64,000 nt of DNA from Eledone cirrhosa (lineage: Eukaryota): the NCBI GenBank assembly GCA_964016885.1, contig OZ024740.1:173910001-173974000 (forward strand), read 5' to 3'. Positions 2,938 through 63,359 of the stretch are shown here, piece by piece; position 1 is the first letter of the stretch; the number at the start of each line of letters is the position of its first letter. The position numbers and the translations under genes are program-made. The notes beneath the pieces are model-generated. The model did no database searches and had not been told where the DNA came from. It saw only the letters and a program-made list of their open reading frames with translations.

Positions 2938-3290
2938 TATAAAGAAAAAAAGATGAAATCGAAAATGCAACTGGAGTCTTATTTAAAAAAATATATATAT
3001 ATATTTATTTGGTTCCTTTACTGGTTTCGCAGTTTTTCTGCTTTTCAAAAGTAGAGTTGAGATGGAGGGTCTGTGGTTTTTCTCACATCTGTGAGAAAAA
3101 CCACAGACCCTCCATCTCAACTCTACTTTTGAAAAGCAGAGAACTGCGAAACCGGTAAAGGAACCAAATAAATTACTCTTTTACTCTTTTACCTGTTTCA
3201 GCCATCCGGCTGAGGCCATGCTGGGGCACCGCCCTAAAAAAAAAAAAAAACTCCAGTTGCATTTTCGATTTCATCTTTTTTTCTTTATAT
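2938..3290. repeat. Fold-back (palindromic) Penelope-like terminus in (TA)n, nested in the Helitron
   Basis: Inverted arms centred at ~3088. The right arm carries a SINE 3'-end insertion (3176-3236) and a hammerhead motif. Confidence 0.8.
3125..3161 (+). ncRNA. Minimal type I hammerhead ribozyme, U3:A8 core variant
   Basis: cuu-UUGAAAA-GCAG agaa CUGC-GAAA-CCGGUA-aag. Palindromic stem III (ACCGGU) and GUA triplet. Confidence 0.6.
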
Positions 3291-6200
3291 ATATATATAT
3301 AGTGTTAGTCGAACCAAAGAGGGCTCGATAAGGATAAATACATATCAAATATATAAGAACCCTAGAGCAAATAATGTTCTCATTGCTGACGTATTATCTT
3401 CGCTTTTTTCCGTTCATTGCCAGGGAACGTCTTCACGAACCAAAGTATCGTCTTCCTGTTTTCCTTCGGTTGCAACGTTTTTCGAAATATTTACTTTTGC
3501 GTTTTATGTTTTCATAATGTCGTAATGCAGACAGCCAGACATGGAGACAGATATTATAAGCTATGTATCTATCTAAAAAGACAGACTAAGAAAGAGAGAG
3601 AGAGAGAGAGAGAGAGAGAGAGAGAGAGAGAGAGAGAGAGAGAGAGAGAGAGAGAGAGATCGCAAACCGGCGCCTAATGCGGTCCCTAGGGCATTGAAAA
3701 TTTGAAAATTTTTGCTCAAAACACTCACATAAGTATTACATGTGTAAAGTTTGAAAAAAATCGGTTGGGTGGTTCTCGAGTTTTAGACAGACAGACAGAG
3801 AAACATTTTCTGTTTTAGATATATAGATAAACTCTGCTACAGATACACACTTTAAATGAATTGTATATTTTATAATTCAATTGTCTAAATAGCATGTAGC
3901 TAATTTATGCATTTTATTAAAGAATTTTAAATATAGTAAATACCAACTTTATAATGTGTGAAACGGCTTTCTTTGATTTTATAAAATAATAAACGACTTC
4001 CAATGAGGAAGACTTTTCTCTCCCATCATTTGTATTGTTCTTTAATGTAAAGCGTAAATGTTGACCATCTCTCCATCACGAATTTTCTGCATGTTCTTTT
4101 TGCTTATACTAGCAGAATACTCGGCGTTACTCAGGTTGAACAGTAACTATAAATGTAGCAAACTAGTTTTTAGTGAAAGCACATTCAGTTTAATAGAACA
4201 CTTTCTTTTGAAAGTTATCTTTCAGGTGAAAAATGAATTTATCTCCAAAATATTTATAGCATTTTGGTTCATAATATACTGTGCCATAGATATACATTTA
4301 ATAGGAATAGTATATTTCAATATTTAATTGCATGAATGTCATATAGTTATTAATTCAGGCATACTCCACGCGATCTGAATTTAGAGATTTTCTACTTTTT
4401 ACCATTTAAAAAATTCAGTAAAACTAAATTTATTTGATAATTCTAATGGCAAAAACTAATTTACTACTTAAGAAGGTCGAATGGTAGAATCACTAGATCA
4501 TCAGTGAAAGAGCGCTGAGGTATTCGGTTACCGCCTTTTACGTTCTGTGTTCAAAGCTATCCTGAGGAAGAAGAGGGTAATTGAATGGCATGTTCGTGTG
4601 CGACTCTCATGGTACTACCCTCATTTTGGCCTGTTTATCTCTCGACCCTTCCATGGAATGACTATGCGTGGCTCGCAGAACGTATTGAACCCCGTTTTCA
4701 TATGTTTATCTCTTGACATTTGGATGGTATGCTTTTTGTGCAACTTACGACTGGTCATGCCTTGTGGTTTGTTTAGATTTCGACAATTGAATGAAATGTC
4801 CTCAATTATAGTTCTGAATATATTTGAAATATAATAAAAAATAGTTAACCAGAGATTTAATACAACATATATTCAGATTAATGTTTCAAGTGAAGGATAA
4901 AACATAGTTTATGTTGACATAAAGATAAATTTGACAACAGCTAAATTTAAACTCAAAACGGAAACAGCAAAAATTCAGTAACAATGTTATTGAGAATTAA
5001 TGTACACATAATTCTAACGTCTGATCAGCTGAGTATGAGCAAGTCCCTCTACACAAAATTCAATTTAAATATAATGTTTAAGACAACTCCATTTATTCCA
5101 AGTTCATTAAATGTTTTCAAAAGACTAAATCTGTGACCTGGTTTTGATTTCTATTATTTAAGCTTCTAATACTCCTGCAAAGGTTTATTTTCCTCACAGG
5201 TGAATTTGCTCTCGACACTGCAAACTAGTGAAACAGTTGTGAACTGTAATATATTAAAATCAAATTTATTTTTAGCTAAGTGGATGTTAGCAACAAAGAA
5301 AAGCGAAGAACCATTGTCAAAATATTAACTTAAGCCGGCCTAATGGTAACGCTGCTCCTATGATCAGCTACAATTTTCAACTTTTCTGTTATTTAAAATA
5401 ACCTTATGCAAGCCACAATGAGTATCGTACAAGAAGTAAATTATTCTGCTGCTAATTATTGTGGGGTAAAACATGAACGTCTTATTTTCTATTCTCTTAA
5501 AATAAAGGATTTTACCTCTGGTTTAAAACAACTAATCCCCCTTAGAAAGAAATTCGGAATCTCGATTGGATATTTGAAAGGGCAATTGCTTATCGAGTAA
5601 AAAGAAATGAAAATTCGACCTCAAATATTTAGTGCTTTACGAAATGGATTGCAGACAAGATATAAAACATTAAAAAATATTCATCTAATTACAATCACTG
5701 AATCCCCCAAAAATATTGGCATGCTATTTGTATGATGTTAAGAGATTGAGGGGGTTGAGAAAAATTTTTTTTTTAAAGTTAGACATGTGGTAATATATGG
5801 ATACTAATGAACGATGTAAGACTTTATGCTACTATATTACTGGCAACTGTTTTAGCAACATTGTTAGGGTAAAACATCTCTCAGTTTCGATGGAATATTA
5901 ATTTGGAGATATGAAGTACTTAGTTCCGTAAACATTTTGGTTTTATAAAGGAAACATTTAAAACGGAATATAGAAATATTGAAGTATTGAAATAGATGTC
6001 AAATTCATTTCAGGTGGTATTTAGATAGAAAGCATATGTAACAATGACACTATCAAATTGAATTGTAGTGCTTCAAGGAATATAGGCTTCAACATTTCGA
6101 TATAGTTATGTTGTGAGTCATGTACACAAAAGTGTATGAGTCTAAATTTCTTGAAATTGCCTCCCTTTTTCTCTAAGAGTAGCTTTCAATTGCCACTAGA

Positions 6201-6296
6201 TATTTGTTTTCTTTCCCTTTTTAATTGCTTTGGAAATATTTACGTTTTCCACACCAAACTTCACTACCTATCTCATACATCTGTATATATATATTT

Positions 6297-6585
6297 ACAC
6301 ACACACACACACACACACACACACACACACACACACACACACACACACACACACACACACACACACACACACACACACACACACGCGCGCGCACACACAC
6401 ACGCGCACACACACACACACACACACACACACACACACACACACACACGCACACACATACACACACACAGAAACAGACCCCCCCACACGCACGCACACAC
6501 GCACGCACACACGCACGCACGCACGCACACACGCACGCACGCACGCACACACGCACGCATGCACGCACACACGCACCCCCCACAC
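6297..6585. repeat. (CA)n/(CACG)n compound microsatellite
   Basis: Direct reading; a similar tract lies at 7053-7240. Confidence 0.95.
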
Positions 6586-7557
6586 ACCTCTCCCCACATT
6601 CACTTCTCTGAAGACTGCCAAACCATACTGACGTATTGTTAACTTTTGAAAAGAGTTTAATTATGTTACTATCTTTTGTTATGGCTGTTGCTTATCACCC
6701 CGTTAGCCCTCACCGGACTGATGTACGAATAAAGATGTTCCACCTGTGACCATTCCGACTTTTAGACATAATGTATCTAGGAATTTCTGCCAGGAGTTGC
6801 GACCGATAGATAGTATCAGCGATGGCAAGACCAATGGAACTATTGTTTCCTTAGTCCGATTTGACAAGTTCCACCCCATTCGGTAAGCGAATGACGTCTG
6901 GGATTTTGTCGATTGGACACTATATATCTAGGACTATATTACCCTGTGTGTCGGTACATTTCCTTCTCCAGTTGCTTTTCGCGAGCTTCAATTCAAAACT
7001 GGAAACTAATGGAATACGCACTAATTATACACTACTGCTTACTATAAGTTTTACACACACACACACACACACACACACACACACACACACACACACACAC
7101 ACACACACACACACACACACACACACACACACACACACACACACACACAAACACGCACATACACGCGCGCACATACACACATACACGCACGCACACACAT
7201 ACATACACGCACACGCGCACGCACGCACACCCACCCACACAGATACCCCCCCCCCACATATATATATAAAGCCCACTATGGGTTACACTTGGAAGGTTCC
7301 TCTCCAAGGCGTATGCCTAGACAAAGAGATTTGTTGAAGAAAAACTGTCACTCATGCATGCTACTCTCTCCTCTCACTTCATCGATGTTGTCTAATACAA
7401 CTCCTATAGGACTGGGCAAAGTTTCATTTTCTTTCCAATGGAATGAACTGAACCAACGTAAAATATAATGACTTGCTCAATAATAATACTCGCTGCTTGT
7501 TCCAAGAAACGAACACTATCTTACGGTCGTGAGCCCAACACCCCAACTCCCCAGCCC

Positions 7558-62310: not shown

Positions 62311-62422
62311 AATATATATATATATATATATATATATATATATATATATATATATATATATATATATATATATATATATATATATATATATATATATATA
62401 TATATATATATATATATATATA

Positions 62423-62608
62423 TAGTGGTAGAACACTGGAAGGTAATATCCGTAGTTGTAGAGCACTCAGTTCATGGGACGAGTTAGGTAGAAGTGGTTA
62501 CACAACAGTTAGTTCACCATACCGAGGAACAATTGTATCACCTGAGAGGATCCGCTAAGGTGATACAATTCTTCTCGGTATGGTGAACTAACTGTTGTGT
62601 AACCACTT
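62423..62608. mobile_element. Fold-back PLE terminus (arms 62492-62543 / 62558-62608) in (TA)n
   Basis: Same end sequence as 57261-57400, followed by its own inverted copy. Confidence 0.8.
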
Positions 62609-62962
62609 ATATATATATATATATATATATATATAGTCTCCTTCTCACCAAGGAAGATGAGACAAAAAAACTTACCTCTTAATTTGAAATCTTTAATTTT
62701 TAGTTTTTAATTCTTATTAATTCTTTTTAATTGTAAGATGAATTTTAATAATACATCGAAACCGGTAATACTTTATGTACATTATGAAACTCTTTTTAAA
62801 AAGAATTGTCCCTCTCATTTTTCAATACTGTCACTTTGACGAATCAAAGAAGGGAAAAAAAAGAAGAAAAACAGACCCTTAAATATATTTCCCATGCTAT
62901 TTCCAACTTCACCCCCCTCCTCTCTCTCTCTCTCTCTCTTTATATATATATATATATATATA

Positions 62963-63359
62963 TATTGATTTTGCGTAAAATAAATCCGTTGCGTATGTGT
63001 GTGTGTGTGTATATATATATATATATATATATATATATATATATATATATATATATATATATATATATATATATAATATATATATATATAAATATATATA
63101 TATATAAATATATACATATATATATACACAGTCACACACACACACACACACACACACACACACACACACACACACACACACACACACACACACACATATA
63201 TATATATATATATATATATATATATATATATATATGTGCGTGTGTGTGTGTGTGTGTGTTATGTGTGTGACTGTGTATATATATATGTATATATTTGTAT
63301 ATATATATATATATATATATATACACATACGCAACGGATTTATTTTACGCAAAATCAAT
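62963..63359. repeat. Fold-back whose arms include microsatellites
   Basis: attgattttgcgtaaaataaatccgttgcgtatgtgt...acacatacgcaacggatttattttacgcaaaatcaat, with inner cacagtcaca/tgtgactgtg. Confidence 0.85.

What the first reader, a model, noticed from the sequence alone, without database searches (positions are those of the whole stretch)
2938..63359. About ten fold-back insertions, mostly in (TA)n and often built on hammerhead-bearing PLE ends
Seen: palindromes at 2938-3290, 7820-7906, 16597-16935, 18380-18445, 27526-28270, 29143-29282, 61813-62218, 62492-62608 and 62963-63359, plus the 780-bp inversion at 8065/12320. They come from several unrelated sequence families. Most have tiny or no loops, turn within ~100 nt of a hammerhead motif, and have one arm shorter than the other. 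Known: PLEs make inverted pLTR structures and favour microsatellites. Inference: here the main product is a short non-coding hairpin made by cDNA snap-back. That would be a retroelement-driven source of genomic palindromes at roughly one per 6 kb, a potential large supply of dsRNA for ADAR or siRNA pathways in a lineage known for heavy A-to-I editing.
Basis: partly seen in the sequence, partly recalled or inferred. Interest (0 to 1): 0.75.

Follow-up and report, generated by a model that had tools for sequence, protein, structure and literature searches.

The report
Back-to-back Penelope retrotransposon end stubs
Eight of the ten mirror-image repeats are back-to-back stubs of Penelope-type jumping genes inserted in TA microsatellites, a known insertion shape that is very common in this genome, and their ends suggest each was likely built from two RNA copies started from both sides of the DNA cut rather than by fold-back.

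Summary
All ten inverted repeats are real. Eight are head-to-head ends of Penelope-like elements (PLEs) in (TA)n, from seven families traced to RT/GIY-YIG ORFs. One is a fixed hairpin of a Helitron-like repeat and one a single-copy local inversion. Each PLE family has two 3' ends, S and tail-end L; 103 of 107 classifiable pairs carry one of each. In 42 of 103 neither arm contains the other, which a simple cDNA snap-back cannot make. Turns pile up at a family-specific site upstream of the hammerhead cleavage site, often behind an untemplated G. Best model (about 0.7): both target ends prime cDNA at S and L, the copies run toward the capped RNA start and are joined head to head. In 590 kb sampled genome-wide, fold-backs occur once per 11 kb and PLE-type ones once per 23-25 kb, not once per 6 kb. 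The shape (inverted pLTR, one-sided tail, opposed hammerheads) is published. The dsRNA/ADAR role is untested. This scan has already reported the same twin-priming reading on other DNA, in this genome too.

The parts
2877..3289 (.). Family A PLE insertion: tail 2877-2937 (L end left), arms 2938-3088 and 3089-3289, U3-A8 hammerhead-like motif 3129-3157 (+), ~62-nt foreign insert in the right arm (3174-3235)
   Evidence: family joined to an RT ORF and a GIY-YIG domain with zinc finger and CCHH in L251/L252
7762..7909 (.). Family F subfamily insertion: tail left, palindrome 7820-7906, S end at (TA)n right; only the 3' half of the hammerhead
7936..12319 (-). 5'-truncated Hydra-type PLE (family D): tail 7936-8064, ORF remnant 9453-11550 (-), inverted 790-nt arm 11531-12319 ending at S in (TA)n
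   Evidence: tblastn with the family H ORF, E 1e-118, DKT and YRDD motifs
16511..16934 (.). Family C insertion: tail 16511-16596, 99% palindrome 16597-16934, complete hammerhead motif on both strands; inserted into the (TA)n of element G
   Evidence: empty site in 13 of 20 G copies by exact anchors; ORF link in L041, L205
18378..18442 (.). Fixed subterminal hairpin of element G (14390-18457, Helitron-like ends); not a fold-back insertion
   Evidence: 40 of 40 scored copies carry it; extent
27526..28309 (.). Family E insertion: arms 27526-27889 and 27902-28270, tail 28271-28309, non-canonical hammerhead-like core near 28049-28077
   Evidence: RT and CCHH GIY-YIG ORF upstream in L258, L259, L266
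29143..29358 (.). Family F insertion: arms 29143-29205 and 29219-29282, tail to 29358; turn inside hammerhead loop II
   Evidence: ORF link in L213
28976..29118 (.).
56489..57239 (+). Long family F arm ending at S, headed by a tail-only inverted arm; complete U3-A8 hammerhead motif 57136-57219
57263..58448 (-). 5'-truncated family I PLE with GIY-YIG domain (ORF 57772-58407) and tail
61813..62311 (.). Family H (young Hydra-clade PLE) insertion: arms 61813-61994 and 61997-62218, tail 62219-62311, hammerhead 62119-62163 (+)
62425..62608 (.). Family I insertion: tail 62425-62491, palindrome 62492-62608, turn at the (degenerate) hammerhead core
62963..63359 (.). Single-copy local inverted duplication of microsatellite-rich host DNA (44 unique nt); not a PLE

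Best explanation
Eight of the ten repeats are head-to-head insertions of Penelope-like retrotransposon ends in (TA)n, and each was likely made when both ends of the cut target primed a cDNA on the element's RNA, one at the internal site S and one at the tail end L, with the two cDNAs then joined at their 3' ends. Shown: PLE identity, the one-S-one-L rule, family-specific turn hot spots upstream of the hammerhead cut site, target duplications, an empty site, and the tail as the 5' leader of the ORF. Inferred: two separate priming events. Also inferred: short products arise when priming occurs in the RNA's first pLTR copy, so the cDNAs run off the capped 5' end at the hot spot. The downstream (L-primed) cDNA often stops early, giving asymmetric or tail-only arms. 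Joining likely uses microhomology or short filler. The hammerhead is a passenger and does not set the turn.
For: Two 3' end modes in all nine families parsed. 103 of 107 classifiable pairs have one S and one L end (p 7e-26 against a coin toss; 119 pairs among 253 insertions), as do 15 of 20 long family H loci, none with two like ends. In 25 pairs the S arm reaches further and in 17 more the L arm is tail only, so neither arm contains the other; 39 tie and 22 have the L arm further. In family H the split is 16 to 1, and 13 of the 16 S arms still start at the hot spot (-212 to -223), which argues against later deletion. Head-to-head 29, tail-to-tail 3 in the 590-kb sample. A G absent from long copies precedes the start in 7 of 8 family F arms starting at -58, in 5 arms at -63 and in 3 family H arms; two of these join directly to tail-only arms. 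Target duplications with non-TA letters in 13 of 39 rows, clearest in L024 and L006. Empty site. In full-length copies the tail runs on into the ORF leader. Raw reads of another sample show strand switches at the same hot spot, one into the tail. In vitro, a PLE protein cuts and extends both strands, starts at two sites that bound the tail, is predicted to be a dimer, and does not need hammerhead cleavage (PMC11167929).
Against: 61 of 103 pairs (ties and L-further) are also compatible with snap-back. Several of the G bases can be read as partner-arm sequence. No RNA 5'-end data. The test of whether arms share private variants was inconclusive: arm-arm identity beat the nearest other copy in 21 of 102 rows, tied in 18 and was lower in 63, and the rows included non-adjacent pairs. 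134 of 253 insertions had no partner within 70 nt, partly because the references end. De-duplication of overlapping loci was by flank sequence and may leave a few repeats. Families H, E and I were partly ascertained by query.
Confidence: 0.7

Rival explanations
1. cDNA snap-back: one L-primed cDNA folds on itself and copies itself back to S; asymmetric cases arise by later deletion.
For: Many junctions overlap by 1-9 nt or turn on self-complementary hexamers (41 of 103 overlap). 61 of 103 pairs are compatible. Palindromes are deletion-prone (established knowledge); the 61813 left arm has a 33-nt deletion.
Against: 42 of 103 pairs have arms that do not contain each other. Intact hot-spot starts are joined directly to tail-only arms. 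The 16:1 bias in family H is not expected from deletion.
Confidence: 0.13
2. Self-priming on an antisense template (Arkhipova 2013, PMC3846280 Discussion).
For: Published explanation of head-to-head junction palindromes; short junction palindromes are seen here.
Against: It does not predict the one-S-one-L rule, nor a sense-strand hot spot with a preceding G. PMC11167929 shows extension on the sense pLTR-ORF RNA.
Confidence: 0.08
3. Host repair makes the palindromes after insertion, by hairpin formation or template switch at breaks in (TA)n.
For: Fits 62963-63359, a single-copy inversion of host microsatellite DNA.
Against: Cannot give family-specific S and L ends, target duplications around the whole unit, or a clean empty site.
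Confidence: 0.05
4. Library or assembly artefact (fold-back chimeras).
For: No amplification-free long reads were available to lay.
Against: Arms differ by substitutions, deletions and a one-arm insert. Ends are family-specific. The same joints and ends appear in raw reads of another sample.
Confidence: 0.02

Closest known systems
EN+ PLE insertions with inverted pLTR and one-sided tail (Adineta vaga Penelope, PMC3846280; overview in PMC8557442)
   Same: Head-to-head inverted 5'-truncated copy, tail on one end only, junction palindromes, target duplication.
   Different: Here ORF-less stubs of 100-800 nt dominate (72 of 77 bystander insertions reach 300 nt or less upstream of S). Tails are 39-161 nt, against 30-40 nt. 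About 10^5 copies are extrapolated.
Hydra clade of C-terminal EN+ PLEs (PMC8557442, section 11)
   Same: The family H ORF (891 aa) has RWK, DKT, CxCx5C, CxxC before E and CxH; canonical hammerhead; (TA)n target.
   Different: About 4.4 kb with a long linker, against 'generally short (<3 kb)'. Families A and E carry CCHH and belong to other clades. No tree was built.
Minimal type I hammerheads of PLEs (PMC4209133)
   Same: Short stem I, palindromic stem III, U3-A8 variant, and 'dual min-HHRs 100-700 bp apart on opposite strands'.
   Different: Family F has a long loop II and a closed stem III; family E has a non-canonical core.
PAc Poseidon in vitro (PMC11167929)
   Same: Two internal start sites bounding the tail, both strands cut and extended, hammerhead cleavage dispensable.
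   Different: The parts read do not show or discuss joining of the two cDNAs into an inverted insert.
L1 twin priming (recalled, no call)
   Same: Second target strand primes internally and gives an inversion; the tail-only cases look like this.
   Different: Here both priming sites are fixed and the arms usually overlap, giving a palindrome.

Membership tests
EN+ Penelope-like elements | Single ORF with PLE-type RT and C-terminal GIY-YIG upstream of the terminal repeat | tested here: met
   Family H 891-aa ORF; A and E; C, F, I, D by contiguous tblastn hits to the H ORF. Pfam did not hit the H ORF; its call rests on motifs.
EN+ Penelope-like elements | pLTR from partial tandem, with the tail continuing into the ORF | tested here: met
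   L202, L203, L209, L218; shown for family H only
EN+ Penelope-like elements | Inverted 5'-truncated copy with tail at one end | tested here: met
   103 of 107 pairs
EN+ Penelope-like elements | Hammerhead motif in the pLTR | tested here: inconclusive
   Met for A, C, F, H, I, J, M by descriptor; non-canonical in E; none found in D or K; cleavage not tested
Hydra clade | RWK, DKT, CxCx5C linker, CxxC and CxH around E/N, (TA)n target | tested here: met
   Family H has all; window remnants of D and I show the parts they cover
Hydra clade | Placement in an RT phylogeny | not tested
   No reference set of PLE RTs was at hand
MITE or self-mobile hairpin family | Fixed-length palindrome copied as a unit | tested here: not met
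   Turn points and arm lengths differ between copies in the 8 PLE items. The fixed hairpin 18378-18442 moves as part of a 3.5-kb element.
Helitron (element G only) | 5'-TC, 3'-CTAG, insertion between A and T (features recalled) | tested here: inconclusive
   Ends fit on the minus strand; no Rep/helicase partner was sought
ADAR or siRNA substrate | Transcribed as hairpin RNA and edited or diced | not testable with these tools
   Needs stranded RNA and DNA from one animal

The most novel reading that the evidence does not exclude
PLEs of at least three clades integrate by twin priming from both target ends, and in this genome their run-off products have seeded over 100,000 short near-perfect palindromes. 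These record each element's capped start and may be a main source of the long dsRNA behind octopod hyper-editing.
Probability: 0.35. Interest if true: 0.65.

Novelty: new member of a known kind. Interest (0 to 1): 0.38.

Why it matters
How PLEs make their inverted ends and one-sided tail is stated as open in PMC8557442 and PMC11167929. The one-S-one-L rule and the tail-only arms give a concrete, testable model, and family H is young with an open 891-aa ORF for an in vitro test. Octopus has an exceptionally high share of loci able to form long dsRNA and the strongest hyper-editing, and its repeats were not annotated in that study (PMC5625713, passages). PLE palindromes (about 0.9% of sampled bases) are a candidate source. 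They would need read-through transcription, since a start at the centre would transcribe the arms apart.

Tried and rejected
Rfam: no hammerhead among the 150 of 168 matches listed, and none of those reached its gathering score; a custom descriptor was used (null 0-1 hits per score class in 10 shuffles). Genome search with the family C arm returned nothing, probably because common words are skipped. Pfam and PDB gave no hit for the family H ORF. No RNA holder was listed, and run X15 laid no records: no evidence either way. Arm-sharing test inconclusive; shared rare changes were A>G 18 and T>C 23 of 131, so no fossil-editing signal here. Adjacent direct repeats by the same rule are more common than fold-backs (105 against 55), so fold-backs are not enriched over tandem duplications as such. 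Single-strand folds of the motifs were mostly not better than shuffles (z -0.2 to -2.6). My first reference pick included fold-back copies and was redone. A paper on PLE hammerhead variants (recalled) was not held, so the family E core is unclassified. Literature searches for the twin-priming model and for octopus PLE palindromes found no paper stating it; most subscription papers are not searched. No supplements were read; those of PMC8557442 may hold these families.
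Full report
Observation. Self-BLAST finds all ten inverted repeats, and reading them shows arms 69-100% alike where aligned. The window lies on a 443-Mb contig of a 3.0-Gb genome. That the animal is an octopod rests on recalled repeats and on earlier AI notes, not on a test of mine.

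What they are. A search with the 61813 arm gave 455 candidates; the 40 scored held many 100% identical copies. Long copies carry an 891-aa ORF with RT and C-terminal GIY-YIG and the Hydra-clade motifs listed in PMC8557442 section 11. Families C, F, I and D are contiguous with homologous ORF remnants. Families A and E lead to RT and CCHH-type GIY-YIG ORFs. 7820-7906 clusters with family F. So 8 of 10 are PLE ends, from at least three clades by motif. Two are not. 18378-18442 is present in 40 of 40 scored copies of a 3.5-kb repeat. 62963-63359 has no second copy among 3 candidates and is a local inversion of microsatellite-rich DNA.

Anatomy. Every family parsed has two 3' end modes, S and L, 39-161 nt apart. 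In full-length family H copies this tail runs on into the ORF leader. I parsed 253 insertions of nine families in loci L001-L163 and the window: 119 are head-to-head pairs, 107 have both ends classifiable, and 103 have one S and one L end. Fifteen of 20 long family H loci show the same, two have one cut end, and three have no classed partner. Target duplications with non-TA letters appear in 13 of 39 rows. Thirteen of 20 copies of the host element of the 16597 palindrome show the empty (TA)n site by exact anchors.

Mechanism. A snap-back copy must be contained in its template arm. In 25 pairs the S arm reaches further upstream while the other arm alone has the tail, and in 17 more the L arm is tail only; 39 tie and 22 have the L arm further. 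So 42 of 103 cannot be simple snap-backs. In family H the split is 16 to 1, and 13 of those S arms start at the intact hot spot. The geometry fits cDNA priming from both target 3' ends. PMC11167929 (parts 1-2 of 4 read) reports both-strand cutting and extension, two start sites bounding the tail, a predicted dimer, and no need for hammerhead cleavage. Turns cluster at H -221, F -58/-61, J -65, A -153 and I -63 to -76, upstream of the predicted cleavage sites (H -55, F -18, A -83). A G not found in long copies precedes 7 of 8 F arms starting at -58, 5 of 13 rows at -63 (long copies included) and 3 of 36 H rows (long copies included). This suggests run-off at a capped RNA start; some of these G bases are ambiguous. 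D. virilis Penelope has an internal promoter with Inr and DPE (PMC2377424, passages). The arm-sharing test was inconclusive.

Hammerheads. A type I descriptor finds complete motifs in 3 of 10 window items. Family F stubs lack the 5' core and so could not form the motif in cis. In the sample, 12 of 51 motifs fall in fold-backs, which cover 2.75% of bases, but only 8 of 55 fold-backs hold a complete motif.

Abundance. In 59 evenly spaced 10-kb stretches (589,800 bp) there are 55 fold-backs. Thirty-two have an end within 5 nt of (TA)n (mean 3.0 in 40 random placements) and 24 show the S/L spacing (mean 0.8). Nine families give 66 insertions, 36 paired and 26 palindromic. That is about one PLE palindrome per 23-25 kb, roughly 120,000-130,000 by extrapolation. 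Head-to-head outnumbers tail-to-tail 29 to 3. Adjacent direct repeats are commoner still (105). 72 of 77 bystander insertions of five long-reference families are short; divergence can shorten alignments.

Reality check. Raw RAD reads of another sample of the best-holding species label (X24) show three strand-switch joints (3, 3 and 9 reads) at the family H hot spot, one into the tail. They also show a roughly 30-fold depth step at the family F hot spot and 1,097 reads running into (TA)n at the family I S end. RAD depth is biased and these are not native long reads.

Known versus new. PMC3846280 (passages and Discussion) describes inverted pLTRs, a one-sided tail and junction palindromes, and proposes antisense self-priming. 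PMC8557442 (passages and section 11) calls the inverted truncated copy and tail typical and the mechanism undefined. PMC4209133 (part 1 of 4 and passages) notes hammerhead pairs 100-700 bp apart on opposite strands. The retrozyme preprint 10.64898/2026.07.22.740005 was only term-searched. PMC5625713 (passages) gives the editing context. Searches found no paper stating the twin-priming model. Earlier notes of this scan reach the same reading on other windows. I had formed it before looking; they prompted the cap-G and A-to-G tests and the Hydra-clade check, and are not independent support.

Verdict. Real, mostly PLE, known in shape, abundant. Interest 0.38.

Noticed in passing
window 14390-18457 (-): Young 3.5-kb non-coding element G (97-99% identical copies, 846 candidates) with Helitron-like ends in (TA)n, a fixed 221-nt inverted repeat (14400-14620/15152-15371) and a fixed 65-nt hairpin; often hit by PLE insertions.
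   Followed up: partly
tails of families H, F, C, I, M, J (e.g. window 62259-62265): A shared GAGTRCT-like word lies 18-41 nt after S and 37-62 nt before L in otherwise unrelated tails; absent in A, E, K, R. Candidate protein-binding site.
   Followed up: partly
L015, L018, L020, L026, L035, L057 (family H L ends): (CT)n runs of 4 to over 20 units sit between the L end and (TA)n, suggesting reiterative copying at priming; this may be a source of (TA)n(GA)n compound microsatellites.
   Followed up: no
window 62963-63359: Single-copy inversion of about 190 nt of host microsatellite DNA; a likely true DNA fold-back at a (TA)n break.
   Followed up: partly
window 28049-28077: Family E hammerhead-like motif with a conserved CAGUUGA core in place of CUGANGA; activity unknown.
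   Followed up: partly
window 59756-61652 (-): Second family D copy with an EN remnant; a tandem 203-nt SINE-like pair (60012-60435) is inserted in it.
   Followed up: no
window 40581-43658 and 52754-54225: Repeated units carrying (ATGT)n tracts, next to RT-like ORF pieces; short hairpins at 42413-42465 and 53363-53405.
   Followed up: no
window 58363-58448/58894-58986: 93-nt inverted pair at the 5' end of the long family I copy.
   Followed up: no
L125, L131, L139, L143, L155, L156, L162: Seven of 55 sampled fold-backs are inverted pairs of very high-copy SINE-like repeats, not at (TA)n; a second palindrome source.
   Followed up: no
L167:3-1016: Tandem repeat reading as (TEGYTIT)n upstream of a family H copy.
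   Followed up: no
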